NCBI RefSeq assembly: GCF_001306055.1
Contig: NZ_LGHJ01000027.1
Span: 4,044-36,043 of the forward strand
Length of the DNA: 32,000 nt
Direction of reading: 5' to 3'
DNA from: Bellilinea caldifistulae
GTDB lineage: Bacteria; Chloroflexota; Anaerolineae; Anaerolineales; Anaerolineaceae
The stretch's first letter is position 1. Each line of letters opens with the position of its first letter. Shown here piece by piece: positions 1,867 through 30,949 of the stretch. Below the pieces are notes generated by a model. That model saw nothing but the letters and a program-made list of their open reading frames with translations. It was not told the origin of the DNA and searched no databases. A program made the translations under genes and the position numbers.

Positions 1867-2208
1867 ATTGGGAAAGACAAATTCAGCCCCACCGCTGGTA
1901 TCGGCGAGGCTGAGACGGCAACGCGGTGAAGGCGCGTTGCGGCAAAAACAAGCATAGCAAACTTTTGCCGCCCGCGCAAGTGAACCGCTAGGGAGTACAA
2001 CAGATTCTTTGCGCAGTAATTTTATCTTTTCTGTACCTACTTAGTTGGTTTCCGCGTACAGACAGTGATTTGTCAGAAAGCAGGGGGCTGTTCTTTCAAC
2101 ATAGTGACTTTATCCATGAAATCTCCTATTCCCCCAACTCTACTCTCACAAGTTTTACAGCTTAACAAGGTATAAAAAATGCTCGGATTTCAACAAAATA
2201 TGTAGTTT

Positions 2209-2246
2209 GTTGCAGTACTTGCAACATCTATTCTGTAAGATATAGA
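2209..2246 (+). promoter_or_regulatory. candidate cas operon promoter with an overlapping inverted repeat
   Basis: -35 TTGCAA (2219-2224), 16-nt spacer, -10 TATAGA (2241-2246), ~110 nt upstream of the cas3 ATG. The inverted repeat GTTGCA(2209-2214)/TGCAAC(2220-2225) overlaps the -35. Confidence 0.3.
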
Positions 2247-2360
2247 TAAGTCTGTAACGCCTTCTCTATTTTGATTAATCAAATGATATGGATTTCAAAG
2301 ACTTCTTGATTTGAAAGCACAAACGTCAAAAAAATTCATAAATGATAATAGGATGCAAAG

Positions 2361-3335
2361 ATGAGTGGACTGACCAAATCCGAACGATTGGAAGAAATGA
2401 AACGATTATACATTCAACGGGCATATTCCGATAAGGAACTGGCTGAACGGTTGGGAGTAAACAGAACACAAATTTATCGGGATCGAATCGAACTTTCCCG
2501 TGAATATCCGATAGAAAAAGATCAAAATGGACGGTATCACATTCCTCGCTCAAAACTGCTTTCAGAAATCAAGGTCAACCTTCTCGAAGCACTTACCCTC
2601 TATCTGGCTGCCAGCAAAATAGCCCGCCAAACCCGAGTTTATCACCCCCCCGCTGCCAACGCCGTCGAAAAACTGGCTGCGGTCTTACGCCAGCCAATGA
2701 CGGAACAACTGCTGAACTCTGCCAACCGTCTCTTGAATCAAGAGAAAAAACCGGAAAAGATCAAAATCCTTGAAACCATTGCTCAGGCATGGGTGGAGCA
2801 GCGCAAAGTCCGAATGGAATATCAACGTCTGGGGCATGATGAAATTACGCGGCACACTATCAGTCCCTATCTGATCGAACCTTCTATCTGGAGTGACAGT
2901 GTCTATGTCATTGCTCAAAGCGACTTCAACGATAAAATTTATCCCTTCAAAATAGACCGAATCCTTTCCGCCTTCCTGACCAGCGAAACTTTTGCAATTC
3001 CCTCATCTTTTAGCTCAGAGGACTTGTTGAAACATGCCTGGGGAATCTGGTATGCCGACCGCGAACCGGTTACCGTAAAACTGCGGTTTTTCCCCTCTCC
3101 AACCGTCATTCAACGGTTAGAGGAAAGTATCTGGCATCCGTTAGAGCGCGTCGAGAAAACCGAAGATGGCGGTCGAATCTGGAGCGTGGAAATTGCCGAT
3201 TGGCGCGAGATGCTCCCCTGGATACGAGGATGGGGCGCCGATGTGGAAGTGCTGGAACCGCCAGATCTGCGCTCCGCGTTGGAAAAAGAAGCCAGAAGAA
3301 TGGCAAAATTGTATGGGATGGGAGATCTTAATACG
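2361..3335 (+). other. HTH-WYL-WCX transcription-factor-like module forming residues ~1-325 of the Cas3 ORF
   Basis: wHTH: YSDKELAERLGVNRTQIYRDRIEL...NGRYHI. WYL-like: RHTISPYLIEP..SVYVIAQSDFNDKIYPFKIDRILSAF. WCX-like: VTVKLRFFPS...WGADVEVLEPPDLRSAL. The canonical Cas3 N terminus (FFAHRRED..NWQPLIEHL) begins only at ~aa 330. Confidence 0.75.
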
Positions 3336-5582
3336 GTGCGCCCTCGTTTCTTTGCCCACCGTCGTGAGGATGAAGATTCTGAAAACTGGCAGCCCCTTAT
3401 TGAGCATTTGAGGAACACAGCAGCAATGGCGCGCGACTTTGGCAAGGACGCCAACGTTGCGGATTTTGCTTACATCACTGGGCTGCTCCACGATTTAGGC
3501 AAATACTCAGATGAATTTCAAAAGCGGCTTGTAGGCAGTGGGAGGCGTGTTGATCACTCTACTGCTGGCGCGAAAGAACTTATTAGCCTTTTCAAAGATA
3601 AGCCACAGCGACCCTTTGCTTATCTTCTAGCATATCCCATCTTGGGGCATCATGCCGGCTTGCCCGATTACGGTAGCGAAACTGATTTGGAAGGAGGCAC
3701 CCTCTGTGCACGGCTAAAGAATGTCATTCCCGATTACAGTGCGTATAAAAACGAATTAGATGTTACGGAGTTGTCGCTTCCGCTAAATTTACCTTTTCGT
3801 CCATTGCACCTGCCAATTATCCCTCAAAAGCCACCCAAAAATTATTTTGGGTTCTCACTCTCTTTTATGGCGCGTATGATTTATTCTGCCCTGGTTGATG
3901 CCGATTTTCAGGAAACGGAAACCTATATGAGGGGTAAAAAACCTCGCGGCGAGTATGACAAGATCCCTGAATTGCGGGGAAAACTGGATCAGCACTTAAG
4001 GCAATTTGAGAAACCGACCAGCGAAATCAACCAAAAGCGCAACGAAATACTTCACGCCTGTATCGAAAAAGCAAAAACTGAAAAACCCGGCTTCTTCTCG
4101 CTTACTGTGCCAACAGGCGGAGGGAAGACGCTCGCTTCAATGGCGTTTGCACTTCATCATGCTGCTGAATACGGCTTAAGACGTGTCATCTATGTGATCC
4201 CCTTCACGACCATCATCGAGCAAAACGCCGGGGTTTTCAAGAATATTTTCGGTGAAGAGCAGGTACTGGAACATCACTCCAATTTCGATTGGGAAGGTAA
4301 AAACCGTGAGGATGCCGACAACCGTACCAACAGTGTTCTTGCCAAACTCAAACTAGCGGCGGAGAACTGGGAGATTCCAATTGTGGTCACAACCAATGTG
4401 CAGTTTTTCGAATCGCTGTTTGCTAACAAGTCATCGCGCTGCCGAAAGCTACATAACATTGCAAAAAGCGTGATTATTTTTGATGAAGCCCAAATGTTAC
4501 CGCGGGAGTACATGCGCCCAGCAATGGCGGCGGTATGGGAATTGGTCACCAATTACGGCGTAAGCGCCCTCTTTTGTACTGCTACCCAGCCCCGCTTGGA
4601 ACGTTTCCTACCCTTGGGGACCGAAGTTAAAGAACTCGCACCCAACCCGCAGGAATTATTCGATTTTTATAAGCGAGTGGATGTGCAGAATCTTGGGACG
4701 CTCACCGACGTGGAATTGTTAGATCGTCTGAATCGGCATGACCAGGTTCTGTGCATTGTCAACACCCGCCGCCACGCTAGCGGATTATTCAAGGGCTTAC
4801 AGGGCGATGGAAATTTCCACCTTTCGACTCTAATGTGCCCGGTGCACCGCCGCGCCAAATTGGAGGAAATCAAAAAGAGATTGTCGAGCGGAAAATCCTG
4901 CCGCGTGGTCTCAACCACGGTAATGGAAGCAGGGATTGATCTGGATTTTCCCATCGGCTATCGCGCCCTTTCAGGGCTGGATTCCATCAACCAGGCGGCA
5001 GGACGCGTCAACCGCGAGATGCGGCAACCGTCAGGCTATCTGTTTGTTTTCGAGCCAAAGTCGGAATTCATCAATAAGACGCCTTCTTTTATCAAACAGG
5101 CGGCGGAAGTTGCTCGCATGGTCTTGCGTGATCATGCCAAAGCGCCGATTTCCATCCCCGCTATTCAAGCATTTTTCGGACATTTGTATAACTTGCAAGA
5201 CCCTCTGGCATTTGACTTCAAACGTATTATGGATTGCTTTGAGGATGACGAGGGCAGGTTCAAATTTGAGACGGCGTCGCGGGCGTTCCAAATCATCGAA
5301 GACCCAACCGTAACGGTCATTATTCCCTTTAACGAGGAGGCTAAAAAACTGATTGAAGAATTGAAATATACCAAGTATCCATTCTCTACCTTGCGGAAAC
5401 TTCAGCCCTACACAGTTTCTATTTATAAGAGCGAGTTCGATAAACTCAGTTCGAAAGGAGTCGTTTTGACTATTGAAGATACCTATCATTTCCTGAACCC
5501 CGACAACCTGCAAGCGTACTATGACCCGCATTGCGGTCTTCTTATCCCCGAAAACGGTGGCGGGGATGGGTTACTGTTCTAA
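2361..5582 (+). CDS. cas3: Cas3 HD nuclease/SF2 helicase (type I-C) with an N-terminal HTH-WYL-WCX regulator fusion, 1073 aa
   Basis: Single uninterrupted ORF. HD motifs: HDLGK, DHSTAGA, LGHHAGLPDY, ALVDADF. Helicase motifs: VPTGGGKT (Walker A), FDEAQ (motif II), TATQP, VSTTVMEAGIDLDF, QAAGRVNR. It is the first gene of the cas3-cas5-cas8c-cas7-cas4-cas1-cas2 order. Confidence 0.92.
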   Translation: MSGLTKSERLEEMKRLYIQRAYSDKELAERLGVNRTQIYRDRIELSREYPIEKDQNGRYHIPRSKLLSEIKVNLLEALTLYLAASKIARQTRVYHPPAANAVEKLAAVLRQPMTEQLLNSANRLLNQEKKPEKIKILETIAQAWVEQRKVRMEYQRLGHDEITRHTISPYLIEPSIWSDSVYVIAQSDFNDKIYPFKIDRILSAFLTSETFAIPSSFSSEDLLKHAWGIWYADREPVTVKLRFFPSPTVIQRLEESIWHPLERVEKTEDGGRIWSVEIADWREMLPWIRGWGADVEVLEPPDLRSALEKEARRMAKLYGMGDLNTVRPRFFAHRREDEDSENWQPLIEHLRNTAAMARDFGKDANVADFAYITGLLHDLGKYSDEFQKRLVGSGRRVDHSTAGAKELISLFKDKPQRPFAYLLAYPILGHHAGLPDYGSETDLEGGTLCARLKNVIPDYSAYKNELDVTELSLPLNLPFRPLHLPIIPQKPPKNYFGFSLSFMARMIYSALVDADFQETETYMRGKKPRGEYDKIPELRGKLDQHLRQFEKPTSEINQKRNEILHACIEKAKTEKPGFFSLTVPTGGGKTLASMAFALHHAAEYGLRRVIYVIPFTTIIEQNAGVFKNIFGEEQVLEHHSNFDWEGKNREDADNRTNSVLAKLKLAAENWEIPIVVTTNVQFFESLFANKSSRCRKLHNIAKSVIIFDEAQMLPREYMRPAMAAVWELVTNYGVSALFCTATQPRLERFLPLGTEVKELAPNPQELFDFYKRVDVQNLGTLTDVELLDRLNRHDQVLCIVNTRRHASGLFKGLQGDGNFHLSTLMCPVHRRAKLEEIKKRLSSGKSCRVVSTTVMEAGIDLDFPIGYRALSGLDSINQAAGRVNREMRQPSGYLFVFEPKSEFINKTPSFIKQAAEVARMVLRDHAKAPISIPAIQAFFGHLYNLQDPLAFDFKRIMDCFEDDEGRFKFETASRAFQIIEDPTVTVIIPFNEEAKKLIEELKYTKYPFSTLRKLQPYTVSIYKSEFDKLSSKGVVLTIEDTYHFLNPDNLQAYYDPHCGLLIPENGGGDGLLF

Positions 5583-5693: not shown

Positions 5694-6359
5694 ATGGGAT
5701 ACGGCATCATCATCCGCGTTGAAGGCTCTTATGCCCTGTTCACTCGCCCCGAAATGAAAGTGGAGCGCGTCAGTTACGATGTCATCACGCCCTCGGCGGC
5801 ACGCGGGATTATCGAGGCGGTTTATTGGAAACCCGCTATCCGTTGGGTAATTGATAAAATCCATGTCCTGCGCGAAATTCAATTTACCAACATTCGTCGC
5901 AACGAGGTGAGCAGTAAAGCATCGGTGGACAATGCCTTGCAAGTGATGAAGGGCGCGCAAAAACCGCTCTACATCGCTGCTACCGAAACTCGTCAACAGC
6001 GCGCTGCAATGGTTTTAAAAGATGTGGATTATGTCATCGAGGCGCATTTCGATTTGACAGACAAGGCCGGCCCGGACGATACACAGGAGAAGCATTACAA
6101 CGTGGTTTTGCGCCGTCTGCGTAACGGTCAGCGCTTTCACACCCCCTGCCTGGGGACTCGTGAGTTTCCTGCCAAGGTAACGCTCATCGAGGATAAAGAC
6201 GACATCCCCAAAAGCCCGCTTGTGGGCAAGCGTGACCTGGGTTACATGCTTTACGACCTGGATTTCTCCAACCCTCGCGACATTCAGCCAATGTTCTTCC
6301 GAGCGGTTATGGAAAATGGCGTTATTGTTGTGCCGAAGCCTGAGGAGGTGCGGCGATGA
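5694..6359 (+). CDS. cas5: Cas5c (Cas5d) pre-crRNA endoribonuclease/Cascade subunit
   Basis: N terminus GYGIIIRVEGSYALFTRPEMKVERVSYDVITPSAARGIIEAVYWKP is typical of Cas5 in I-C. AGGAGG SD lies upstream. The stop overlaps the cas8c start (ATGA). Confidence 0.92.
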   Translation: MGYGIIIRVEGSYALFTRPEMKVERVSYDVITPSAARGIIEAVYWKPAIRWVIDKIHVLREIQFTNIRRNEVSSKASVDNALQVMKGAQKPLYIAATETRQQRAAMVLKDVDYVIEAHFDLTDKAGPDDTQEKHYNVVLRRLRNGQRFHTPCLGTREFPAKVTLIEDKDDIPKSPLVGKRDLGYMLYDLDFSNPRDIQPMFFRAVMENGVIVVPKPEEVRR

Positions 6360-8269
6360 TCTTGCAATCGCTCTATAACTACTACCAGATTTTGCGCGAA
6401 GACCCCGACGTAGAGATTGCCGAGCCCGGCTATAGCAATGCCCCTGTCAGTTATGCTCTCAATTTATCTGAAAACGGTGATCTGCTAGACATCGTACCGC
6501 TGTTTGTCCCTGTTCAATCCGGGAAAAAGACAGTGGAGAGACCCCGCCGAATGAATGTACCAGAGCAAGTCAAGCGTAGTGTCAACGTTGCGGCAAATTT
6601 CCTGTGTGATAACGCTGCTTATGTCCTTGGGCTCACCGGAAAAGAAGCAAAAGACCCGGAGTATTCCCAAAAGCGATTTGAGGCTTTTCGGAAACTAAAT
6701 GTAGAAATTCTTTCTGGAGTTAATACCCCTTTAGCTCGTGCAGTGATTTCTTTCTTGCAAAAATACGATCCCTCAACCGCTTTACAGAATCCCGTAATTT
6801 CACGCCATCTGGAAGGATTGATGGAAGGTGGTAATCTTATCTTTCAGGTTGAAGGCAAGAATGTGCTGGACGACCCTCAAGTCAGGAGCGTTTGGGAGGA
6901 GTATAAAACCGGGCAAAAAGCGGCTGTCATGCAATGTCTGGTCACTGGTGAAATTGAGCCGGTTGAACGTCTGCATCCAGACATAAAAGGAGTTCGAGAT
7001 GCCCAAAGCAAAGGCGCTTCTCTGGTTAGCTTCAACCTGGATGCATTTACATCTTATGGCAGAGAACAAGGCTCGAATGCGCCCGTGAGCAAGCGGGTCG
7101 CATCAGGATATGGTGTGGCGCTCAATTATCTGCTTTCCAACCAAAACCCGAATCGCAAAATTTACTTTGGTGATACCACCGTGGTCTATTGGGCGGATGC
7201 GCCCGAAAAACGTTACGCAAGCGCTTTCTACTCTTTCCTGAATCCAGAATTCCAACAGGGGCAGGGGGAAGAAGAAACCGAAGAAACCAAAAGTGAGGAA
7301 AAACGGAAACGTGCCAAACAAGCAGAAAGAACGCTTGGCGAAGTAGCCGAATCTGTATGGCAGGTAAAAGCCATTGACCTTGCCGAGTTACACAAACAAA
7401 TTGAAAAAGAATTGGACAAAAACACGCGATTCAATATTTTGGGATTAGCCCCGAGCGCAGCGCGTTTGTCTGTGCGCTTCTTTCTCACCCAGCCGTTTGG
7501 CGTGTTCGCCGAACGCATCATGCAGCACTATGAAGACCTGCAAATCGAGAAGGAATATGTCAACCAGCCGACATATATCTCGCCCTATCGCATCCTTGCC
7601 GAATGTGTTTCGCCCAAAGTGACCTCACGCGATGAAGAAGTAAAAAAATCCTGGTCACTGTTAGGCGGTGCATTCATCCGTTCGATTCTCACGGGAACGC
7701 CTTACCCCGAAGGTTTGTACGCAGCCATTCTGAATCGTATTCGCCATGATACCGATGAATCCAGTGAAGGAGGAAGACAAAGAAGTATCAAAATCAACTA
7801 TATCCGCGCTGCCTATCTCAAGGCGCATCTCATCCGAAAGTATCGCCGTCAAGGCAATAATCCCTATCAGGAGGCTTTGCATATGTCACTCAATGAATCC
7901 TACACTCACCCGGCCTACGTGCTGGGCCGTCTGTTCGCTGTACTGGAAAAAGTACAGAGAGAATCTATTGGGACAACCATAAATGCCACCATCAAGGACC
8001 GCTACTTCACCTCTGCCTGCGCATCACCTGCCAGTGTTTTCCCAACGCTGCTACGGCTTGCCCATCATTGGACGGCGAAAGCCGAATATGGCAGCGTATC
8101 GGACAGAAAAATCCAGGACTTACTGGGCATGCTCGAGGCAAAACCCTTTCCATCGCGATTCTCGTTGGATGAGCAGGGCATTTTTGTTCTGGGCTACTAT
8201 CACCAGCGGGCTGCCTTCTACACCAAGAAGGATAATCATGCTGAGGAAACAAGTCAACCCGATGATTAA
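6356..8269 (+). CDS. cas8c: Cas8c (Csd1) large subunit
   Basis: 637 aa with the N terminus MILQSLYNYYQIL typical of Csd1. Sits between cas5 and cas7 and is translationally coupled to cas5. Confidence 0.9.
   Translation: MILQSLYNYYQILREDPDVEIAEPGYSNAPVSYALNLSENGDLLDIVPLFVPVQSGKKTVERPRRMNVPEQVKRSVNVAANFLCDNAAYVLGLTGKEAKDPEYSQKRFEAFRKLNVEILSGVNTPLARAVISFLQKYDPSTALQNPVISRHLEGLMEGGNLIFQVEGKNVLDDPQVRSVWEEYKTGQKAAVMQCLVTGEIEPVERLHPDIKGVRDAQSKGASLVSFNLDAFTSYGREQGSNAPVSKRVASGYGVALNYLLSNQNPNRKIYFGDTTVVYWADAPEKRYASAFYSFLNPEFQQGQGEEETEETKSEEKRKRAKQAERTLGEVAESVWQVKAIDLAELHKQIEKELDKNTRFNILGLAPSAARLSVRFFLTQPFGVFAERIMQHYEDLQIEKEYVNQPTYISPYRILAECVSPKVTSRDEEVKKSWSLLGGAFIRSILTGTPYPEGLYAAILNRIRHDTDESSEGGRQRSIKINYIRAAYLKAHLIRKYRRQGNNPYQEALHMSLNESYTHPAYVLGRLFAVLEKVQRESIGTTINATIKDRYFTSACASPASVFPTLLRLAHHWTAKAEYGSVSDRKIQDLLGMLEAKPFPSRFSLDEQGIFVLGYYHQRAAFYTKKDNHAEETSQPDD
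7883..8269 (+). CDS. cas11: probable Cas11c small subunit translated from an internal start within cas8c
   Basis: In-frame ATG at 7883 preceded by AGGAGG (7869-7874, 8-nt spacing). It would give a 128-aa product, MSLNESYTHPAYVLGRLFAVLEKVQ.... This matches published internal translation of Cas11 from I-C cas8c. Confidence 0.55.
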   Translation: MSLNESYTHPAYVLGRLFAVLEKVQRESIGTTINATIKDRYFTSACASPASVFPTLLRLAHHWTAKAEYGSVSDRKIQDLLGMLEAKPFPSRFSLDEQGIFVLGYYHQRAAFYTKKDNHAEETSQPDD

Positions 8270-8420
8270 TGTCATCGCAAGTGGTAAAGCGGCGAATCAA
8301 TTTACTTTCAAAGAGAGCGCTACCCTCGTATTCAAAACAAGTGAATTGGCCATCTTCCTCGGCAAGACGGAAAATTGTAAAGTTTTTTCAAAAAACCAAA
8401 ATAACAAAGGAGAATAACTC

Positions 8421-9287
8421 ATGACTACCCTTTCCAACCGCTATGAATTTGTTTTGCTCTACGACGTAGAGAACGGCAATCCGAACGGCGATCCTGATGC
8501 AGGAAATATGCCACGCATTGATCCTGAAACAGGCTACGGAATTGTCACCGACGTGTGCCTGAAGCGAAAAATTCGCAATTACGTGGAGATGATTAAGGGA
8601 GATACACCCGGTTACCGAATCTATGTCAAGGAAGGCATCCCGCTGAATGCCAATCACAGAGAAGCCTATCTTGCCGTTGGTTTAGAACCCGGCAAGAAAG
8701 CTTCAGTAGAAGGGGTAAACAAAGCCCGCGAGTGGATGTGCAAGAACTTTTATGACATCCGCACCTTTGGCGCCGTTTTGAGCGTTGGAGATAACTGCGG
8801 TCAGGTGCGCGGGCCAGTGCAATTGAACTTCTCCCGGAGCATTGACCCTATCGTTCAACAAGAAGTGACCATCACTCGCCTGACAGTCACAAGAGAGGAA
8901 GAAGCAGACAAAGAGCGCACGATTGGGCGCAAACACATCATCCCCTATGCCTTATACCGTGTTGAGGGGTATGTTTCTGCCAAATTAGCCAATGACCCGA
9001 CCAAAGGAACCGGTTTCTCTGAAGAAGATCTGCAACTGTTTTGGGAGGCGTTAATCAACATGTTTGAACATGACCGTTCGGCGGCGCGCGGAAAAATGGC
9101 AACCCGCAGATTGTTTGTTTTCAAACACGAGAGTGATTTGGGAAATGCACCCGCTCATCGGTTGTTTGAACTGATTCGGGTCAATAAAAAAGAGGGCGCC
9201 AACCCACCGCGCAGTTTTGATGATTATGAGGTGAGTGTTAACAAAGATGACCTACCCTCTGGAGTCACCCTAATTCCCATGCTCTAA
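8421..9287 (+). CDS. cas7: Cas7c (Csd2) backbone subunit
   Basis: N terminus YEFVLLYDVENGNPNGDPDAGNMPRIDPETGYGIVTDVCLKRKIRNYV is the characteristic Csd2/DevR-family sequence. AAGGAG SD lies 8 nt upstream. Confidence 0.92.
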   Translation: MTTLSNRYEFVLLYDVENGNPNGDPDAGNMPRIDPETGYGIVTDVCLKRKIRNYVEMIKGDTPGYRIYVKEGIPLNANHREAYLAVGLEPGKKASVEGVNKAREWMCKNFYDIRTFGAVLSVGDNCGQVRGPVQLNFSRSIDPIVQQEVTITRLTVTREEEADKERTIGRKHIIPYALYRVEGYVSAKLANDPTKGTGFSEEDLQLFWEALINMFEHDRSAARGKMATRRLFVFKHESDLGNAPAHRLFELIRVNKKEGANPPRSFDDYEVSVNKDDLPSGVTLIPML

Positions 9288-9301
9288 GCCAATTTCGAAA
9301 A

Positions 9302-9332
9302 CCCGGCTCCCACGTGGGGGGTGGGAGCCGGG
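9302..9332 (+). terminator. perfect 12-bp GC-rich hairpin between cas7 and cas4 (possible attenuator or RNA-stability element)
   Basis: CCCGGCTCCCAC (9302-9313) pairs with GTGGGAGCCGGG (9321-9332) around a 7-nt loop GTGGGGG. It is followed by GAATTTCCTTTT, only a weak T tract. Confidence 0.4.
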
Positions 9333-9356
9333 GAATTTCCTTTTAGGGAACTAGAT

Positions 9357-10025
9357 ATGCCCCGCGAATATACCTCCGATGACCTTTTGCCCCTTTCCGG
9401 CATCCAGCACTTCATGTTTTGCCGTCGGCAGTGGGCACTGATTCATGTCGAACAACAATGGAGAGAAAATACCTTCACCGCTGAGGGCAGGCTCTTACAC
9501 CAACGGGTAGATGATCCTTTCTTTACCGAAACCCGAAATGGAGTCATCATTGCTCGCTCGGTACCGGTTGCTTCTTACCGTTTGGGGCTTTCGGGTATAT
9601 GCGATGTGGTCGAATTCAGCGAGTCGGAAGTGGGTGTAAATCTGCCTGGCAGGCAAGGCACTTTCTTACCGGTGCCGGTGGAATACAAGCGTGGCCGCCC
9701 AAAATCCACCCCTGTGGACGAAGTTCAATTATGCGCTCAGGCAATCTGTCTGGAAGAAATGCTCTCGGTAGCCATTCCGGTTGGCTATCTATACTATGCA
9801 AAAACTCGCCACCGCACACCGGTAGAATTGACCGATAAGCTGCGTCAGCTGGTTGATAAGATCAGTGCTGAAATGCATGCCTACTACGAACGCGGATACA
9901 CTCCCAGAGTAAGAACTTCACGCGCCTGCCGTTCCTGTTCCCTGGCAGAAATTTGTCTGCCGCGCTTGCAAGAAAAATCCATGCCCGTTTCCCGCTATAT
10001 TCATCAGTGGATTGACCATGACTAA
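9357..10025 (+). CDS. cas4: Cas4 RecB-like nuclease with Fe-S cluster cysteines
   Basis: LSGIQHFMFCRRQWALIHVEQQW, DVVEF, VEYKRG and the C-terminal CRSCSLAEIC. I chose the ATG at 9357, because the GTG at 9321 lies inside the upstream hairpin. Confidence 0.9.
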   Translation: MPREYTSDDLLPLSGIQHFMFCRRQWALIHVEQQWRENTFTAEGRLLHQRVDDPFFTETRNGVIIARSVPVASYRLGLSGICDVVEFSESEVGVNLPGRQGTFLPVPVEYKRGRPKSTPVDEVQLCAQAICLEEMLSVAIPVGYLYYAKTRHRTPVELTDKLRQLVDKISAEMHAYYERGYTPRVRTSRACRSCSLAEICLPRLQEKSMPVSRYIHQWIDHD

Positions 10026-10028
10026 CCG

Positions 10029-11060
10029 ATGAAAACCCTTGCCAATGTCCTGTATATAACCACACCCGATACTTACCTCTCTCTGGATGGGGAGAACATT
10101 GTCATCAAGAAAGATGAGCATACCTCAACGCGGCTGCCCCTTCATAACTTGGAAAATATTGTCTGCTTCAACTGGCAGGGCGCCAGTCCGGCTTTGATGG
10201 GCGCCTGCGCGGAAAGAGGAATCGGATTGGCATTCCTCTCGCCGAATGGACGTTTTCTTGGGAGGGTGAGCGGCAAGATTAAGGGCAATGTTCTGCTTCG
10301 GAAGAAGCAATATCGAATTTCCGAAGAAGAGACCCCCAGTGTGCCAATTGCCTCATCATTTTTGGTTGGCAAAGTTTATAACAGCCGCAAAGTCATTGAA
10401 CGCGCCTTGCGAGACCATGCACTGCTGGTGGACAAGGTTGCCCTCTCCAAAGCTTCTTCATTCCTAAAGGAAATTTTGAGCGCATTGGTCACCTGCAAAC
10501 ACATTGCAGAATTGATGGCATTTGAAGGGAGCGCAGCAAAGATCTATTTTGGGGTCTTCGATCAGTTGATCTTGCAACAGAAAGATGATTTTCACTTTGT
10601 CGAAAGATCGCGCCGCCCGCCGTTAGATAATATGAACAGCCTGCTTTCGTTCCTTTACACCTTGCTGACTAATGAAGTGGTTTCTGCCTTGGAAGCAGTT
10701 GGACTGGATCCATACGTGGGGTTTCTTCATACCGAGCGTCCAGGTCGGCCTTCGCTTGCTCTGGATATGATGGAAGAACTGCGTCCCGTGTTTGCCGACC
10801 GATTGGCGCTTTCGCTGGTAAACCGCCGGCAAATCACTGCCAAAGGATTTACTCAAAAAGAAAGTGGCGGGATTTTGATGGATGATGAAACCCGGAAAAC
10901 GGTCATCACTGCCTGGCAGGAACGTAAAAAGGAAGAAATCGAACATCCCTACCTGAAAGAACGCATTCCCTTTGGTTTGATCCCGCATGTGCAAGCCCTG
11001 TTACTGGCTCGTCACCTGCGCGGCGATTTGGATGCCTATCCTCCTTTTTTCTGGAGCTGA
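10029..11060 (+). CDS. cas1: Cas1 integrase (I-C type)
   Basis: 343 aa with typical motifs: LYITTPDTYLSLDGENIV, RRPPLDNMNSLLSFLYTLL, LDPYVGFLH. Follows cas4 by 3 nt. Confidence 0.95.
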   Translation: MKTLANVLYITTPDTYLSLDGENIVIKKDEHTSTRLPLHNLENIVCFNWQGASPALMGACAERGIGLAFLSPNGRFLGRVSGKIKGNVLLRKKQYRISEEETPSVPIASSFLVGKVYNSRKVIERALRDHALLVDKVALSKASSFLKEILSALVTCKHIAELMAFEGSAAKIYFGVFDQLILQQKDDFHFVERSRRPPLDNMNSLLSFLYTLLTNEVVSALEAVGLDPYVGFLHTERPGRPSLALDMMEELRPVFADRLALSLVNRRQITAKGFTQKESGGILMDDETRKTVITAWQERKKEEIEHPYLKERIPFGLIPHVQALLLARHLRGDLDAYPPFFWS

Positions 11061-11093
11061 TGCGTAATTTGGTGATTATGGAAGAGGTATGAA

Positions 11094-11384
11094 ATGTTCG
11101 TTCTCATTACCTATGATGTCAACACCGAAACCGAAGCGGGAAAAAAGCGTTTGAGAAAAGTGGCCAAAGCCTGTCAGGATTACGGTCAACGGGTGCAGAA
11201 TTCGGTTTTTGAATGTGTTATTGACCCGACCCGTTTTCGGTTTTTGCGAGCCAGGCTTGAGAAATTGATTGATAAGGAAAAGGACAGCCTCCGATTTTAT
11301 TTTTTGGGCGATGAGTGGAAAAATCGGATCGAGCATATTGGAGCTAAGCCAAGCCTTGACATTACCGGAACTCTGATAACCTGA
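11094..11384 (+). CDS. cas2: Cas2
   Basis: 96 aa, MFVLITYDV...RLRKVAKACQDYGQRVQNSVFEC. Last cas gene before the array. Confidence 0.93.
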   Translation: MFVLITYDVNTETEAGKKRLRKVAKACQDYGQRVQNSVFECVIDPTRFRFLRARLEKLIDKEKDSLRFYFLGDEWKNRIEHIGAKPSLDITGTLIT

Positions 11385-11567: not shown

Positions 11568-14500
11568 GTCGCTCCCCCCACGGGGAGCGTGGATTGAAAC
11601 ATTGAAGCGTTGGAACAAGCAGAGGAAACTAGCCATGGTCGCTCCCCCCACGGGGAGCGTGGATTGAAACGCCTCTGGTGCGGAATTATCGAGATTGATG
11701 ACAGGTCGCTCCCCCCACGGGGAGCGTGGATTGAAACTCGGTGGGAGGGTATTTGTAGACTTTGCTCCTCCGTCGCTCCCCCCACGGGGAGCGTGGATTG
11801 AAACACTGAGTGGCTCGGCCATTGGTCAACCGCTGGAGTCGCTCCCCCCACGGGGAGCGTGGATTGAAACAGGTGGTTGGCGAATTTGAGCGCATGTCTG
11901 CGACTCGTCGCTCCCCCCACGGGGAGCGTGGATTGAAACTCCTCAAAGACCTTGGACGGAGACCGGATGCCCAAGGTCGCTCCCCCCACGGGGAGCGTGG
12001 ATTGAAACTACATGGCTGATACTCAAGCGGAGTTGGACGCGGGTCGCTCCCCCCACGGGGAGCGTGGATTGAAACTCAATATATTTGTGACAAAAATAGA
12101 GATATTGTCAGTCGCTCCCCCCACGGGGAGCGTGGATTGAAACGGGGTGACGAAGGGCGGAACAGGGTAAATCTGTAACGTCGCTCCCCCCACGGGGAGC
12201 GTGGATTGAAACTTACATGTCCGCTAGATGCGGACGGTTTCGTAGCGTCGCTCCCCCCACGGGGAGCGTGGATTGAAACAAAGAACAATCACTTTGAACC
12301 CGAACGGTGCTTTGTCGCTCCCCCCACGGGGAGCGTGGATTGAAACCAGGCTGCGAGCCGGTCGCGCCAACTGTCTTGGCGCGTCGCTCCCCCCACGGGG
12401 AGCGTGGATTGAAACACGTGTTCTAGCCATGGTTTTACCTCTTTTGGATGTCGCTCCCCCCACGGGGAGCGTGGATTGAAACTCAACGAGAGTAGCGGTG
12501 TCGCTTTCCGCCAGCGATCGTCGCTCCCCCCACGGGGAGCGTGGATTGAAACCAGGCTGCGAGCCGGTCGCGCCAACTGTCTTGGCGGTCGCTCCCCCCA
12601 CGGGGAGCGTGGATTGAAACTCAGCTGTAGTTGCGACTACCGTTAGGTTTTCCGGGTCGCTCCCCCCACGGGGAGCGTGGATTGAAACTACTCTAGCGTG
12701 CTTCCTACCTATATGCCTCCGGGTCGCTCCCCCCACGGGGAGCGTGGATTGAAACAATAATTATATGGTTGAAAGTGTTTACGGTTATTTGTCGCTCCCC
12801 CCACGGGGAGCGTGGATTGAAACTTGGAGCAAACCGACCCAGCCATAAGAGCCGCTCAAGTCGCTCCCCCCACGGGGAGCGTGGATTGAAACCCAGAAGT
12901 AGATTTTGGGATCTCCAACTTTACCTCGTCGCTCCCCCCACGGGGAGCGTGGATTGAAACAGAAGTTTCTCTTCAATTCTTTCGATGAACCCCAGTCGCT
13001 CCCCCCACGGGGAGCGTGGATTGAAACACTCCATTAGCCGTTGTAAAATTACCGCCAGCGTGTCGCTCCCCCCACGGGGAGCGTGGATTGAAACTCGAGG
13101 CTTGCAAACGACTTGAAAAGAGGTTGAAATGGTCGCTCCCCCCACGGGGAGCGTGGATTGAAACACTTCTTAAACCGCTTTGCCCACTTGCCCTCTTTGT
13201 CGCTCCCCCCACGGGGAGCGTGGATTGAAACCGTGCTGTCAAGTACTTTCTGCAACTTTTTAACTTGTCGCTCCCCCCACGGGGAGCGTGGATTGAAACA
13301 GGTGTGAGCAAATAATTCGCTCAACTTCCATCAGTCGCTCCCCCCACGGGGAGCGTGGATTGAAACCATGACGTGGTCGCTCACCGATAAAAATGCACTG
13401 TCGCTCCCCCCACGGGGAGCGTGGATTGAAACCCAAACGTCAACGCCGATCGTGGTTTTAGATAAGTGTCGCTCCCCCCACGGGGAGCGTGGATTGAAAC
13501 TTGTTCTGCGGTCGTATCCGGTTGTTCGCCTTTGGTCGCTCCCCCCACGGGGAGCGTGGATTGAAACACGAGTAATACCAGCACGGAGGATGCAGGGAAA
13601 GTCGCTCCCCCCACGGGGAGCGTGGATTGAAACGATTTGCTCTGGCGTAACAACCTCTCCCGTGCTTGTCGCTCCCCCCACGGGGAGCGTGGATTGAAAC
13701 CGGGAAGGAAGGCAAACTCGATTTTATTGGCGGCTTGTCGCTCCCCCCACGGGGAGCGTGGATTGAAACGCCTGCCTCCAATTCCCACACACCACCTGCA
13801 ACGTGTCGCTCCCCCCACGGGGAGCGTGGATTGAAACAGACGCTGTGAGGTATGAGATGGCTATCAAACTAGTCGCTCCCCCCACGGGGAGCGTGGATTG
13901 AAACTGCTTACAACGACCTGGTTGCTGAGAGCCGTGTCGGTCGCTCCCCCCACGGGGAGCGTGGATTGAAACTGGGTTCAATAGTACTGTCAGGTCTCTC
14001 GCAGTCGGTCGCTCCCCCCACGGGGAGCGTGGATTGAAACATCAATTAATACGATCGTCTCTACAGCCGAATATTGTCGCTCCCCCCACGGGGAGCGTGG
14101 ATTGAAACTGTCACAAATATATTGAAAAGTGTATACTAATAATCGTCGCTCCCCCCACGGGGAGCGTGGATTGAAACTGAGGGGATACTACCGGAATCGG
14201 AGGAAAGAACGGTGTCGCTCCCCCCACGGGGAGCGTGGATTGAAACTGTCGCCCCGCTGCCGGAGGACGGCGAGCGGTGGGTCGCTCCCCCCCACGGGGA
14301 GCGTGGATTGAAACGAGAAAATCAAAGCCGGACTGGTCGGCTCGTCAGAGTCGCTCCCCCCCACGGGGAGCGTGGATTGAAACGTGTAGAACGGCTCGAA
14401 CTCAGCGATGTAATGGCGGTCGCTCCCCCCCACGGGGAGCGTGGATTGAAACTTTGAGAAGAACTTTTGCTACAAGACTTTTGACCGCCGTCGCTCCCCC

Positions 14501-17500
14501 CCACGGGGAGCGTGGATTGAAACCTGATGCCCGTGCGCGTACTGTGGAGCGCGCGGGGTCGCTCCCCCCCACGGGGAGCGTGGATTGAAACTTTCTTGCG
14601 TTTGCGTACACGCCCGATGCCGGGCGGTCGCTCCCCCCCACGGGGAGCGTGGATTGAAACAAACTTTTGCGCGAGATAACTACTGGAAAAGCGAGTCGCT
14701 CCCCCCCACGGGGAGCGTGGATTGAAACTTCTTGCGTTTGCGTACACGCCCGATGCCGGGCGGTCGCTCCCCCCCACGGGGAGCGTGGATTGAAACCCGG
14801 AAGTTGATCTCAACGAGTACTGGGATTATGTCGCTCCCCCCCACGGGGAGCGTGGATTGAAACGCCCGTGTCGTGGGGCAGGCGTTCGGCCTGTGCGGTC
14901 GCTCCCCCCCACGGGGAGCGTGGATTGAAACGTCATTGTCATGGCGTTCGTGGTCATCCCGCTGGGGTCGCTCCCCCCCACGGGGAGCGTGGATTGAAAC
15001 ACCGCACGCTCACGGTTATCGCCCATCGCCCAAGGTCGCTCCCCCCCACGGGGAGCGTGGATTGAAACGTCAGAAAAGGAACGCTATGCGTTCCTCATGC
15101 CGGTCGCTCCCCCCCACGGGGAGCGTGGATTGAAACTGAATTACCGGAGGAATTACTGCAAACACGAAGGGTCGCTCCCCCCCACGGGGAGCGTGGATTG
15201 AAACCGTAAACTCGCGGCTGCTCATGCGCGCCAGTCCGGGTCGCTCCCCCCCACGGGGAGCGTGGATTGAAACGCTCATTGCTTGCGCTCGCGGTAACCT
15301 CTGCGCGCGGTCGCTCCCCCCCACGGGGAGCGTGGATTGAAACTTCCGAAAGTCGCCAGACGGTCGTATCTCGTGCCGGGTCGCTCCCCCCCACGGGGAG
15401 CGTGGATTGAAACGCATTGATGCAGTGTCCATACCTCGATCCGCGACCGTCGCTCCCCCCCACGGGGAGCGTGGATTGAAACACGGTAGACCGGGTGGAC
15501 ATCGTTGGTGTGGTCAGTCGCTCCCCCCCACGGGGAGCGTGGATTGAAACGGTTGCGGGTGGCGTCACAACACGGACGTTCATTGTCGCTCCCCCCCACG
15601 GGGAGCGTGGATTGAAACACTAGACCCTCCCGCGATAAAACATAGCCCTCGCGTCGCTCCCCCCCACGGGGAGCGTGGATTGAAACGGATGGATAGATAC
15701 CCATTGTCGTATTCCAATGCGTCGCTCCCCCCCACGGGGAGCGTGGATTGAAACACGTCAAATCAGGAAAGCGAGGCCAGATGCGATGTCGCTCCCCCCC
15801 ACGGGGAGCGTGGATTGAAACGAGCCGCTGGGTCGCGATACGGACAGCCTGGACGTCGCTCCCCCCCACGGGGAGCGTGGATTGAAACGGCGATATAAAA
15901 CGACTTGCGGACATAATCCCAGTGTCGCTCCCCCCCACGGGGAGCGTGGATTGAAACTGCGCACTGCGTTAATCGTTTTTTTGCGCACGGTTGTCGCTCC
16001 CCCCCACGGGGAGCGTGGATTGAAACCACCCAATGGGTGGTGCATGACGGATATTCGCGGGTGTCGCTCCCCCCCACGGGGAGCGTGGATTGAAACATCC
16101 TCCTGCTGTGCCGCAGCCAGTAGCAGCGACCGTCGCTCCCCCCCACGGGGAGCGTGGATTGAAACTGGATCGTCATCTACTGCCTCGTCAATCTCGCGGG
16201 TCGCTCCCCCCCACGGGGAGCGTGGATTGAAACGTAGGAGTCTATCATTGATAAGGCTTCAACGGCGGTTTGTCGCTCCCCCCCACGGGGAGCGTGGATT
16301 GAAACTTCGTAGTACCGCCGCGCGTCATCGTAGATTTTCGTCGCTCCCCCCCACGGGGAGCGTGGATTGAAACCCCGCCGGATCAACCGCCGCGACCAGG
16401 TTGTCCGGTCGCTCCCCCCCACGGGGAGCGTGGATTGAAACGTCCAAGGCCAGGTTGGTGGCCATCACGGTCAGCGTCGCTCCCCCCCACGGGGAGCGTG
16501 GATTGAAACAATTTGATATTGAATCAGACTTTACCCCCCAAATGTCGCTCCCCCCCACGGGGAGCGTGGATTGAAACTACGAAAAGAACATTTAACAATT
16601 TCGAGTCATCGGTCGCTCCCCCCCACGGGGAGCGTGGATTGAAACCCGTTGTCGCGAAGCAAGATGAGCATGGTCTCGTCGCTCCCCCCCACGGGGAGCG
16701 TGGATTGAAACGGAAACGGCGCGAGGCGCACGGCGTCAGCCGCTCGTCGCTCCCCCCCACGGGGAGCGTGGATTGAAACTGGATGGTAATCGTAATAATC
16801 CATCGCCTCGTAAAGTCGCTCCCCCCACGGGGAGCGTGGATTGAAACGGAACGTTGTAATCGAGCATGATTACAACTTCCACGTCGCTCCCCCCACGGGG
16901 AGCGTGGATTGAAACAGGTATAGCGGTTCGTTGTATTCAATCTTTGTTCGTGTCGCTCCCCCCACGGGGAGCGTGGATTGAAACGAATCCGAACGGCGCT
17001 TTGGCCGCCGGTTCTTTGTCGCTCCCCCCACGGGGAGCGTGGATTGAAACCAACCTATCCCGCCAGGACAGGCGGGACGCCTGGGTCGCTCCCCCCACGG
17101 GGAGCGTGGATTGAAACACATCGTTGCTGGTGACTGACGTCACCGAATCGCGTCGCTCCCCCCACGGGGAGCGTGGATTGAAACTTTTAACTATATTTTT
17201 ATATCTTTCTGGCAAACGGGTCGCTCCCCCCACGGGGAGCGTGGATTGAAACAGCCATTGCCAGTCTCCAAGTCAACTTCGTCCAGCGTCGCTCCCCCCA
17301 TGGGGAGCGTGGATTGAAACCATAATGCAAGAAGTTTTACCCGAAAATCTTTTGTCGCTCCCCCCACGGGGAGCGTGGATTGAAACGTTTCGGTCCCGCT
17401 TTGTTGTTCCGGAGATGTCCGTCGCTCCCCCCACGGGGAGCGTGGATTGAAACTTCGGCAATCTAAAAGAAATGCTTTGGCCAACCCTGTCGCTCCCCCC

Positions 17501-21640: not shown

Positions 21641-21661
21641 ACAAGTTGTCCTGTTGTCCGG

Positions 21662-21690
21662 TTGACCGTATAAGTTGAACTCCTTAAAAT
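21662..21690 (+). promoter_or_regulatory. candidate sigma70 promoter of the kinase/ABC operon with GTTGA(C/A) repeats
   Basis: -35 TTGACC (21662-21667), 17-nt spacer, -10 TAAAAT (21685-21690). GTTGAC (21661-66), GTTGAAC (21674-80) and the inverted GTCAAC (21713-18) are possible operator half-sites. Confidence 0.4.
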
Positions 21691-21742
21691 CATAACTAAC
21701 TCGTATCGATTCGTCAACACAATTCCGCGGACCAATTTTTTT

Positions 21743-22684: not shown

Positions 22685-22754
22685 TCATGAAAAACCGGTT
22701 AGAAAACCAGATTATGACACCCGTTTAGAACAGTAAATTCCTGAGGAGGAAAAA

Positions 22755-23837: not shown

Positions 23838-23869
23838 AATTCACTGATACCACGGGACGGAGACCCCAC

Positions 23870-27757: not shown

Positions 27758-27761
27758 GATC

Positions 27762-28754: not shown

Positions 28755-28777
28755 ATGTACTAAAAAAGGAGGTAAAA

Positions 28778-30590: not shown

Positions 30591-30848
30591 AGTAAAAGTA
30601 CAATGCCAGGTATTTGCAAGATTGGCGTTACTCCATTGCTTGTGCTTTGCATGATAAGAAGATTCCCTATTCTAACATCTTCGAATTTTATACCGCTCAT
30701 TCAAGTTAAAGGGTCATTTGCCAGTAAAAACTCTTTTCTTCATAGGGATAAACATCCCAAGGGAGAGGTTGAAGAAATAATCAGGCGTATAAAACTCGTT
30801 AGTCTGCCTTTCGATTATACCCATGGGATTACCATCCTTTTATGCAAC

Positions 30849-30872: not shown

Positions 30873-30949
30873 AATTCCCGCAGGGGTTAGCCCGCATAGG
30901 CGGATTGCAGGCTGAGGAACGCCCGCGCCATGCGCTGCAAGTGGATGCC

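What the first reader, a model, noticed from the sequence alone, without database searches (positions are those of the whole stretch)
2361..3335. Complete HTH-WYL-WCX transcription-factor module fused in frame to the N terminus of type I-C Cas3
This is one uninterrupted 1073-codon ORF.
- Residues ~1-60 form a winged HTH (YSDKELAERLGVNRTQIYRDRIEL ... NGRYHI).
- Residues ~145-210 form a WYL-like domain (RHTISPYLIEP..SVYVIAQSDFNDKIYPFKIDRILSAF).
- Residues ~225-318 form a WCX-like extension (VTVKLRFFPS...WGADVEVLEPPDLRSAL).

Together these give the full architecture of PafBC/BrxR/CapW/DriD-type regulators. Canonical Cas3 starts only at ~aa 330 (FFAHRRED..NWQPLIEHL, HDLGK, DHSTAGA, then VPTGGGKT and FDEAQ).

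Stand-alone WYL regulators are known neighbours of CRISPR-Cas and other defence loci, and several bind ssDNA or ssRNA. Covalent attachment to the interference nuclease-helicase is not part of the described I-C architecture. To my knowledge it has not been characterised functionally. It suggests one of two things:
- ligand control of Cas3, for example by ssDNA degradation products; or
- Cas3-tethered autoregulation of the cas operon through the palindromes at 2209-2316.

In-frame Met codons at 3300 and 3318 could additionally give an unfused Cas3.
Basis: partly seen in the sequence, partly recalled or inferred. Interest (0 to 1): 0.75.

Follow-up and report, generated by a model that had tools for sequence, protein, structure and literature searches.

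The report
Transcription-factor module fused to Cas3
The cas3 gene of this type I-C CRISPR locus really does begin with a complete DNA-damage-sensor-type transcription factor, an arrangement noted in 2014 and common in Chloroflexota but never studied, and a conserved binding site in its own promoter suggests it regulates the cas operon.

Summary
ORF 2361-5582 encodes a 1073-aa protein: wHTH, three-helix bundle, WYL and WCX (aa 1-319), a roughly 10-aa flexible linker, then an intact type I-C Cas3. It is followed by cas5c-cas8c-cas7c-cas4-cas1-cas2 and a 124-repeat array.

It is not an assembly artefact. The identical protein is on record for Bellilinea caldifistulae, at least 120 full-length homologues exist, and every subdomain of the module is under strong purifying selection.

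It is not new as an architecture. Makarova et al. (2014) state that WYL is fused to Cas3 in some type I systems. I found no functional study.

What I add:
- The same module is fused to I-C and I-E Cas3, or encoded as a separate gene directly upstream of I-C, I-E or I-G-like cas3, with many switches between these states.
- 113 of 143 related loci carry a TGTTGC-based operator in fixed register with a -10 hexamer, over the -35 position, as at DriD-activated promoters.
- In the window this is TGTTGCAGTACTTGCAACA (2208-2226) plus TAAGAT (2236-2241).

Best reading: an ssDNA-responsive autoregulator of the cas operon tethered to Cas3, where the tether is probably dispensable. Activation versus repression is unresolved.

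The parts
2208..2226 (+). Predicted operator: perfect inverted repeat TGTTGCAGTACTTGCAACA (GTTGC-N7-GCAAC). It lies over the position where a -35 element would sit.
   Evidence: The site is invariant in an alignment of 13 class-2 promoters from I-C and I-E loci, fused and split, whose flanks are unconserved. It is the only perfect site in the 32-kb window.
2236..2241 (+). Predicted -10 hexamer TAAGAT (TAnnnT). It lies exactly 9 nt after the 19-bp repeat (10 nt after its GCAAC core). The predicted transcription start is near 2248.
   Evidence: The same spacing holds in all 33 class-2 loci. The generic sigma-70 scan did not call it because no -35 is present.
2361..5582 (+). Fused gene: wHTH-3HB-WYL-WCX transcription-factor module plus type I-C Cas3, 1073 aa.
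2361..2570 (+). Winged helix-turn-helix, aa 1-70. The likely recognition helix is around RTQIYRDR (aa 35-42).
   Evidence: AF2 secondary structure and Foldseek / profile alignment to DriD. dN/dS 0.027 against L006.
2571..2765 (+). Helical linker / three-helix-bundle region, aa 71-135.
   Evidence: Helices at 74-90, 96-108 and 113-125 in the AF2 models, with low confidence. Aligns to the DriD 3HB. dN/dS 0.058.
2766..2972 (+). WYL domain, aa 136-204.
   Evidence: Pfam PF13280, E 3.3e-10. Five-strand beta unit in the AF2 model. dN/dS 0.10 over aa 136-224.
3063..3305 (+). WCX (WYL C-terminal extension, dimerisation) domain, aa 235-315.
   Evidence: Pfam PF25583, E 1e-17. dN/dS 0.071 over aa 225-319.
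3315..3347 (+). Junction linker, aa 319-329 (GMGDLNTVRPR). Contains Met320; Met314 lies just upstream at 3300.
   Evidence: pLDDT below 50 for aa 319-327 in the full-length model. Variable sequence in homologues. No SD-like motif before either ATG in this window.
3348..3980 (+). Cas3 HD nuclease domain, aa 330-540 (HDLGK 377-381, DHSTAG 398-403, GHHAGL 429-434, VDADF 512-516).
4026..5579 (+). Cas3 SF2 helicase and C-terminal domain, aa 556-1073 (PTGGGKT 584-590, DEAQ 708-711, QAAGR 878-882).
   Evidence: The motifs match solved I-C Cas3 8zns_A.
5694..11384 (+). cas5c (5694-6359), cas8c (6356-8269), cas7c (8421-9287), cas4 (9321-10025), cas1 (10029-11060), cas2 (11094-11384).
   Evidence: Pfam matches.
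11568..19953 (+). CRISPR array: 124 repeats of GTCGCTCCCCCCACGGGGAGCGTGGATTGAAAC and 123 spacers.

Best explanation
The first 319 codons of cas3 encode a complete, functional DriD/PafBC-class transcription factor: a winged HTH, a helical bundle, a WYL domain and a WCX dimerisation domain. A flexible linker of about 10 residues ties it to a catalytically intact type I-C Cas3.

**Shown:** the architecture; its conservation; purifying selection on all parts; and a conserved operator-plus-(-10) composite in the gene's own promoter.

**Inferred:**
- The module binds, as a dimer, the inverted repeat TGTTGCAGTACTTGCAACA (2208-2226). This sits over the -35 position, 9 nt upstream of TAAGAT (2236-2241).
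- It thereby autoregulates transcription of cas3 and probably the downstream cas genes.
- Single-stranded DNA bound at the WYL/WCX pocket is the likely signal. Sources could be phage replication, DNA damage or Cas3's own degradation products.

The promoter lacks a -35 and has the site in a fixed register, as at DriD-activated promoters. This slightly favours ssDNA-triggered activation over CapW/BrxR-style repression, but the direction is not resolved.

The same module, with the same operator, occurs as a separate gene immediately upstream of I-C, I-E and I-G-like cas3. So the covalent link is probably not needed for regulation. It most likely arose repeatedly by fusion of tightly coupled neighbouring genes. 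At most it adds 1:1 stoichiometry and Cas3 dimerisation.
For: **Architecture**
- establish the domains and boundaries.

**Not an artefact**
- The identical protein is in independent assemblies, with at least 120 full-length homologues.
- dN/dS against L006: HTH 0.027, 3HB 0.058, WYL 0.10, WCX 0.071, Cas3 0.089.

**Operator**
- TGTTGC/GCAACA hexamers are 8.5-fold enriched in the 200 nt upstream of the module genes.
- 113 of 143 dereplicated upstream regions carry a TGTTGC-based site at a fixed distance from TAnnnT. The background rate is about 0.001 or less per 300 nt.
- An alignment of 13 class-2 promoters conserves only the repeat and the -10.
- The perfect site occurs once in the 32-kb window.
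- The site is shared by loci with fused or split genes and with I-C, I-E or I-G partners.

**Analogy with DriD**
- DriD binds ATACGAC-N7-GTCGTAT over the -35 position, at a fixed distance from the -10, at promoters lacking a -35 (PMC13004042).
- 7 of 11 DriD ssDNA-contact residues are kept or conservatively replaced: Y154, Y182, K192, F196, K197, W230, R282 (PMC9186387; alignment; numbering).

**Link dispensable**
- Split forms sit next to cas3.
- An NJ tree of 125 modules needs at least 23 fused/split changes.
- The linker has pLDDT below 50 and the full-length pTM is 0.49.
Against: - No experiment exists: DNA binding, the transcription start and the ligand are all inferred.
- The window's operator spacing (N7) differs from the commoner class-1 site (N8 with a degenerate right half). 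Class-1 loci also encode a small MarR-like wHTH protein that could be the binder there.
- Four DriD ssDNA contacts are not conserved: the counterparts of S172, R176, R178 and R204.
- Fused forms predominate with HD-first Cas3 (87 of 101), and none of 32 helicase-first (I-G-like) partners is fused. This hints that the link may matter after all, or that only an N-terminal HD tolerates it.
- The loci are phylogenetically related, so the counts are not independent events.
Confidence: 0.6

Rival explanations
1. The covalent link is the point. The WYL-WCX module is an in-cis sensor or accessory of the enzyme. It binds ssDNA, for example the strand emerging from the helicase or HD products. It allosterically gates or stimulates Cas3 nuclease-helicase activity, or dimerises Cas3. 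The WYL domain of Thermotoga Pif1 helicase acts in a comparable way as an accessory ssDNA-binding module.
For: - The WYL/WCX pocket residues are largely conserved.
- The module is always N-terminal, next to the HD domain.
- 87 of 101 HD-first partners are fused, against 0 of 32 helicase-first partners.
- There is a precedent for a helicase-attached WYL domain (bioRxiv 10.1101/163188).
Against: - The HTH is the most constrained part (dN/dS 0.027), and the promoter operator is conserved. An enzyme-only role does not explain either.
- Natural split versions exist next to closely related I-C and I-E Cas3.
- The linker is flexible and the full-length pTM is low.
- This reading can coexist with the regulatory role.
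Confidence: 0.2
2. The gene gives two products. Besides the fusion protein, internal initiation near the junction yields a free canonical Cas3. The full-length protein then serves mainly as the regulator.
For: - In 40 of 47 dereplicated fused I-C relatives, an SD-like motif plus ATG/GTG/TTG lies within the 17 codons before the Cas3 start. The figure is 7.8% for other 17-codon windows of the same genes.
- In-frame Met314 and Met320 exist in this window.
- A natural split variant (L099-L101) starts cas3 at the equivalent place.
Against: - In this window, and in its closest relative L006, neither ATG is preceded by an SD-like sequence.
- The Met columns are not conserved; they hold V, M, I or L.
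- The enrichment in relatives may be a by-product of the conserved peptide ..AELYxV.. (GCG GAG ... GTG) and of shared ancestry.
Confidence: 0.12
3. Artefact or decay: the single ORF results from an assembly error, or from recent loss of a stop codon between a regulator gene and cas3, with no selected function.
For: Split and fused forms differ by as little as one nucleotide of frame (L099-L101 against fused relatives), so such an error would be easy to make.
Against: - The identical protein is in NCBI and Logan assemblies, including a 3.7-Mb contig.
- At least 120 full-length homologues exist.
- 87 fused loci were found among 161 examined.
- 32 of the best 150 cluster representatives exceed 1000 aa.
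- The junction region lies within sequence under purifying selection.
Confidence: 0.02

Closest known systems
DriD (Caulobacter crescentus wHTH-3HB-WYL-WCX activator; PDB 8tp8, 9pfq)
   Same: - It is the best structural match (Foldseek E 6e-16, full length) and the best profile match (E 1.5e-14, residues 5-315 against 7-326).
- It has the same four-part architecture.
- Its operator is a palindrome with a 7-bp spacer over the -35 position, at a fixed distance from the -10, at promoters without a -35.
- Most of its ssDNA-contact residues are retained here.
   Different: - DriD is a free 327-aa protein controlling a DNA-damage regulon.
- Here the module is the N-terminus of Cas3 and its only detected site is its own promoter.
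- Sequence identity is about 19%.
- The half-site is TGTTGC rather than ATACGAC.
- Activation is not shown here.
CapW / BrxR (wHTH-WYL-WCX repressors of CBASS and BREX)
   Same: - Same domain family, with Foldseek E values of 6e-8 to 1e-6.
- They are encoded at the 5' end of a defence operon that they autoregulate.
- CapW senses ssDNA (PMC11662680, listed).
   Different: - They are shorter (~285 aa) and lack the long helical bundle.
- They are separate proteins and are repressors.
- They score lower against this module than DriD and PafBC do.
WYL-Cas3 fusion noted by Makarova, Anantharaman, Grishin, Koonin & Aravind 2014 (Front Genet 5:102)
   Same: This is the same thing. [quoted passage not shown]
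   Different: That paper gives one sentence and a table of architectures. It offers no subtype distribution, operator, comparison of split and fused forms, or function.
Stand-alone WYL regulators of CRISPR loci (Synechocystis sll7009 for I-D; WYL1 for Cas13d)
   Same: They are WYL proteins genetically linked to cas operons. WYL1 (PDB 6oaw) is a structural hit. The ~340-aa homologues found here lie directly upstream of cas3.
   Different: sll7009 and WYL1 belong to other subfamilies. WYL1 acts on the effector and binds ssRNA rather than acting as a promoter-binding factor. This last point rests on my recollection of the cited literature and was not tested here.
Canonical type I-C Cas3 (solved: 8zns_A, 8g9u_P)
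   Same: Residues 330-991 align at E about 1e-113 with all HD and helicase motifs, including the I-C-typical DEAQ. The operon order cas3-cas5c-cas8c-cas7c-cas4-cas1-cas2 is the same.
   Different: The canonical proteins start where residue 330 lies here. They have no N-terminal module.

Membership tests
wHTH-WYL-WCX transcription factors (PafBC/DriD/CapW/BrxR) | N-terminal winged helix-turn-helix | tested here: met
   AF2 shows helices 6-19, 24-31 and 35-48 plus a beta hairpin at 51-59. Full-length Foldseek and profile alignments to DriD include its wHTH. Pfam HTH_11 alone is sub-threshold at E 0.008.
wHTH-WYL-WCX transcription factors (PafBC/DriD/CapW/BrxR) | WYL domain (Sm/SH3-like beta barrel) | tested here: met
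   PF13280, 40.3 bits against a cutoff of 21.8, aa 136-204. Beta strands 148-210 in the model.
wHTH-WYL-WCX transcription factors (PafBC/DriD/CapW/BrxR) | WCX C-terminal extension / dimerisation domain | tested here: met
   PF25583, 64.7 bits against a cutoff of 23.9, aa 235-315.
wHTH-WYL-WCX transcription factors (PafBC/DriD/CapW/BrxR) | Binds a palindromic operator in a target promoter | tested here: inconclusive
   A conserved inverted repeat lies in fixed register with the -10 in 113 of 143 related promoters, and at 2208-2226 in the window. Binding itself was not tested.
wHTH-WYL-WCX transcription factors (PafBC/DriD/CapW/BrxR) | ssDNA (or other nucleic-acid) ligand bound at the WYL/WCX pocket | tested here: inconclusive
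   7 of 11 DriD contact residues are conserved or conservatively replaced; 4 are not.
wHTH-WYL-WCX transcription factors (PafBC/DriD/CapW/BrxR) | Homodimer through WCX | not testable with these tools
   No multimer prediction was available. The palindromic operator is consistent with a dimer.
Type I-C Cas3 | HD nuclease domain with metal-binding H/HD/H/D motifs | tested here: met
   TIGR01596, 95.1 bits against a cutoff of 43.45. HDLGK, DHSTAG, GHHAGL and VDADF align with 8zns_A.
Type I-C Cas3 | SF2 helicase core with motifs I and II | tested here: met
   TIGR01587, 121.5 bits against a cutoff of 102.45. PTGGGKT and DEAQ are identical to solved I-C Cas3.
Type I-C Cas3 | Encoded with cas5c-cas8c-cas7c, no cas6, and a I-C-type repeat array | tested here: met
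   Cas_Cas5d, Cas_Csd1, Cas_Cas7, Cas4, Cas1 and Cas2 directly downstream. 124-repeat array.
WYL-Cas3 fusion class (Makarova et al. 2014) | WYL domain and Cas3 HD + helicase in one polypeptide of a type I locus | tested here: met

The most novel reading that the evidence does not exclude
The tether creates a feedback circuit that a free regulator cannot. The Cas3-borne transcription factor sits on the cas promoter. It is switched, or pulled off, when Cas3 is recruited to Cascade R-loops or when its WYL pocket captures the ssDNA that its own HD/helicase generates. Ongoing interference would then directly re-programme cas operon transcription. WCX-mediated dimerisation would also make Cas3 an obligate dimer. 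The complete absence of fusions to helicase-first (I-G-like) Cas3 would reflect a need for the sensor to lie next to the HD active site.
Probability: 0.15. Interest if true: 0.7.

Novelty: already known. Interest (0 to 1): 0.4.

Why it matters
How type I CRISPR systems keep the toxic Cas3 nuclease-helicase low and then raise it on infection is only partly understood.

Here a DNA-damage/ssDNA-sensor class of transcription factor is built into Cas3 itself. Its predicted operator is defined to the base pair. Nature also supplies fused and split versions of the same module next to I-C, I-E and I-G-like cas3.

That makes three questions directly testable with simple assays:
- Is cas expression ssDNA-inducible?
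- Is the module an activator, like DriD and PafBC, or a repressor, like CapW and BrxR?
- Does tethering a regulator to its effector change the circuit?

As an annotation matter, these roughly 1070-1250-aa 'Cas3' proteins should be labelled as regulator-Cas3 fusions.

Tried and rejected
- **Assembly artefact or lost stop codon:** rejected.
- **Operator co-variation between the two module subtypes** (type A as here; type B as in Roseiflexus, Chloroflexus and Gracilinema). I expected different operators, but both subtypes use the same TGTTGC half-site, so no specificity-covariation test was possible.
- **'HD-first Cas3 is always fused':** rejected after the metagenome loci showed 14 split I-C and I-E cases. 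Only 'helicase-first is never fused' survives.
- **Generic sigma-70 scan:** found nothing at the cas3 promoter, which has no -35.
- **Rfam:** no known RNA family in the window or in six related loci, apart from one tRNA.
- **Remnant of the small upstream wHTH gene in the window:** none found.
- **Full-length AF2:** no confident inter-domain arrangement (pTM 0.49).
- **Literature:** no paper characterising a WYL-Cas3 fusion. The stored copy of the architecture table in Makarova's supplement is truncated and showed no Cas3 row.

Full report
**Observation**

The window carries one ATG-started ORF, 2361-5582 (+), of 1073 codons.

- Pfam gives WYL (aa 136-204, E 3.3e-10), WCX (235-315, E 1e-17), a sub-threshold HTH_11 (16-56, E 0.008), HD / Cas3_HD (343-442), DEAD / ResIII (556-745) and Cas3-like_C_2 (794-887).
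- NCBIfam cas3_HD and cas3_core both exceed their cutoffs.
- Downstream lie cas5c, cas8c, cas7c, cas4, cas1 and cas2, then a 124-repeat array at 11568-19953. This is a complete type I-C locus.
- Solved I-C Cas3 proteins (8zns_A, 8g9u_P) align from their residues 2-5 to residue 330 here. All HD and helicase motifs are present, including the I-C-typical DEAQ.

**The N-terminal module**

- An AF2 model of aa 1-320 has mean pLDDT 74.6. It shows a winged HTH, a helical region of low confidence, a beta-barrel and an alpha/beta C-terminal domain.
- Foldseek against the PDB returns DriD first (8tp8, E 6e-16, about 334 aligned columns). PafBC, CapW, BrxR and the Cas13d accessory protein WYL1 follow.
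- A 15-sequence family profile aligns to DriD residues 7-326 at E 1.5e-14.
- Through that alignment I mapped the DriD ssDNA contacts listed in PMC9186387. Seven of eleven are kept or conservatively replaced: Y154, Y182, K192, F196, K197, W230 and R282. The counterparts of S172, R176, R178 and R204 are not.

**Real, not an artefact**

- The identical 1073-aa protein is on record for Bellilinea caldifistulae, from NCBI and from independent Logan assemblies (8 member sequences, one contig of 3.7 Mb).
- The best 120 hits are all full-length fusions at 59-100% identity. They come from Anaerolinea, Roseiflexus and Chloroflexus, and from the spirochaetes Gracilinema caldarium and Treponema sp. J25.
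- Against the closest locus, L006, dN/dS is 0.027 for the HTH, 0.058 for the helical bundle, 0.10 for WYL, 0.071 for WCX and 0.089 for the Cas3 body. The module is at least as constrained as the enzyme.

**Already noted in the literature**

Makarova et al. [quoted passage not shown] Full-text searches found no paper that characterises such a fusion. The architecture is catalogued but functionally unexplored.

**Distribution**

- A scan of one genome per species found at least 535 relatives of the module. The best 80 are almost all from Chloroflexota.
- A metagenome scan with the second module subtype gave 80 more loci.
- Classification used ORF length, Pfam on representatives and tblastn with reference Cas proteins.

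| Context of the module | Loci |
|---|---|
| Fused to I-C Cas3 (two lineages, ~1065 and ~1150 aa) | 58 |
| Fused to I-E Cas3 (~1215-1245 aa, followed by cse1-cse2-cas7e-cas5e-cas6e) | 29 |
| Separate gene directly upstream of helicase-first, I-G-like cas3 | 32 |
| Separate gene upstream of I-E cas3 | 10 |
| Separate gene upstream of I-C cas3 | 4 |
| Separate gene, no cas3 detected | 9 |

- No helicase-first Cas3 is fused.
- The split forms are tightly coupled. Chloroflexus aggregans has a 2-nt gap. L005 has a 4-nt overlap and a module 72% identical to ours. L099-L101 differ from fused relatives by one frame, with a 17-nt overlap.
- Module similarity does not follow the Cas3 partner. Modules about 70% identical to ours sit on I-E Cas3.
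- Among I-C fusions, Cas3 bodies 75-82% identical to ours carry a module only 35-39% identical. Bodies 56-60% identical carry a module about 70% identical.
- An NJ tree of 125 distinct modules needs at least 23 fused/split changes and at least 36 partner-subtype changes.
- In an exhaustive search of 1.84 billion cluster representatives, the family has 282 members at E <= 1e-30. Thirty-two of the best 150 exceed 1000 aa, and the module is N-terminal in all of them.

**The promoter**

Upstream regions of these genes share a striking footprint.

- TGTTGC/GCAACA hexamers occur at 6.3 per kb in the 200 nt upstream, against 0.74 per kb elsewhere.
- Of 143 dereplicated upstream regions, 113 have one of two composites. 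Background for both is about 0.001 or less per 300 nt.
  - Class 1 is TGTTGC[AG]GAAT, then 15-19 nt, then TAnnnT. It occurs in 80 regions, often as GTTGC-N8-GCAAC; L024 has the perfect TTGCAGAATTCTGCAA.
  - Class 2 is GTTGC-N7-GCAAC, then 10 nt, then TAnnnT. It occurs in 33 regions.
- Class 1 mostly follows a small MarR-like wHTH gene of about 68 aa (62 of 80). Pure class 2 never does (0 of 26).
- The window is class 2. Its repeat is TGTTGCAGTACTTGCAACA at 2208-2226 and its -10 is TAAGAT at 2236-2241.
- The window has no small wHTH gene. This is the only perfect site in its 32 kb.
- An alignment of 13 class-2 promoters, from fused and split I-C and I-E loci, conserves only the repeat and the -10.
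- The repeat therefore spans about -40 to -22, over the place of a -35 element, which is absent.
- DriD promoters are described the same way. They have a palindrome with a 7-bp spacer (ATACGAC-N7-GTCGTAT) over the -35 position, at a constant distance from the -10, and no recognisable -35 (PMC13004042).

**Interpretation**

The best-supported reading is that the module is a working, ssDNA-responsive transcription factor that binds its own promoter and autoregulates the cas3-led operon.

- The evidence for DNA binding is indirect but strong. It rests on selection on the HTH, on the phylogenetic footprint, and on the footprint travelling with the module across Cas3 partners.
- The direction of regulation is open. 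The DriD-like promoter layout and the closer structural match to DriD and PafBC favour activation. A site inside the RNA polymerase footprint, and the CapW/BrxR precedent in defence loci, fit repression equally well.
- The covalent link is probably not essential. The same module and operator work with separate genes. The linker (aa 319-327) has pLDDT below 50, and the full-length model has pTM 0.49.
- Even so, fusion predominates with HD-first Cas3 and is absent with helicase-first Cas3. That leaves room for an in-cis role such as sensing Cas3's own ssDNA products or dimerising Cas3.

**Internal start**

- In 40 of 47 fused I-C relatives an SD-like motif plus a start codon lies within the 17 codons before the Cas3 start. 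The figure is 7.8% for other windows of the same genes.
- This could mark a real internal start or a relic of the ancestral gene boundary.
- In this window and in L006, neither Met314 (3300) nor Met320 (3318) has such a motif, and the Met columns are not conserved.
- A second, unfused product is therefore possible but unsupported here.

**Verdict**

- The architecture is already known and common in Chloroflexota, so novelty is low.
- The function is uncharacterised. The analysis yields a precise, testable regulatory model and natural fused/split controls.
- Interest is 0.4.

Noticed in passing
window 11568-19953: The CRISPR array has 124 repeats. One contiguous block of 37 repeats (14281-16779) carries an extra C (C7 instead of C6, 34 nt). 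It is flanked by 40 and 47 canonical 33-nt repeats. Two spacers occur twice.
   Followed up: partly
L008-L085 and L096-L165, 70-250 nt upstream of the module gene (e.g. L045:7657-7911): A conserved MarR-like winged-helix-only gene of about 68 aa, ending ..EDxKGGLWPF*, precedes the module gene in at least 72 of 161 related loci. It co-occurs with the class-1 promoter and never with pure class-2. It is absent from the window, L006 and L079. It could be a second regulator of these cas operons.
   Followed up: partly
related loci, 5' UTR of the module gene (e.g. L014, L020, L027, L037, L042, L044): A conserved hairpin GTCCCGCAGG...CCTGCGGGAC shows an apparent compensatory variant (CGAAGG/CCTTCG in L015 and L028). 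In some loci a T-run follows it, so it may be an attenuator. It has no Rfam match and is not present in the window.
   Followed up: partly
related loci, immediately 5' of the module gene's Shine-Dalgarno sequence (e.g. L108-L116, L122-L125, L144, L150): A third TGTTGC half-site abuts the SD (..CTGTTGCGGAG-N6-8-ATG), and a second follows the -10 (TATGCTGTTGCA). This suggests extra operator sites or an RNA-level role. The window lacks both.
   Followed up: no
L050, L057 (= protein P0068), L066: In these variants the module is fused only to the HD domain (Cas3''-like, 521-779 aa). In L050 and L057 a separate Cas3 helicase match follows downstream, in I-E contexts.
   Followed up: partly
window 1011-1778 (-) and L005:1554-2462 (-): A tyrosine recombinase / phage-integrase gene lies divergently upstream of the module gene in the window. 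The same is true at the locus of the 72%-identical stand-alone homologue. This may link the locus to mobile DNA or to the shuffling of the module.
   Followed up: no
window 2270-2283 and 2293-2316: A perfect palindrome TTTGATTAATCAAA and the inverted repeat TTTCAAA-N10-TTTGAAA lie in the predicted 5' UTR of about 112 nt. Both are absent from the much shorter upstream region of the closest relative, L006.
   Followed up: partly
window 2190-2195: An extra half-site-like TCAACA (within TTTCAACAAAAT) lies 12 nt upstream of the operator. It is conserved in L006 and forms a weaker 21-nt inverted repeat with the operator's left arm.
   Followed up: no
proteins P0167, P0171: Full-length fusions occur in the thermophilic spirochaetes Gracilinema caldarium and Treponema sp. 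J25. Their Cas3 bodies are about 76% identical to the Bellilinea protein, which suggests horizontal transfer of the whole locus out of Chloroflexota.
   Followed up: no
window 20900-31615: Downstream of the array is an ordinary GntR-regulated sugar-uptake cluster. It encodes a PfkB kinase, a periplasmic binding protein, an ABC ATPase, two permeases, an M20 peptidase, a GATase1-like protein and an ADP-ribosylglycohydrolase.
   Followed up: yes
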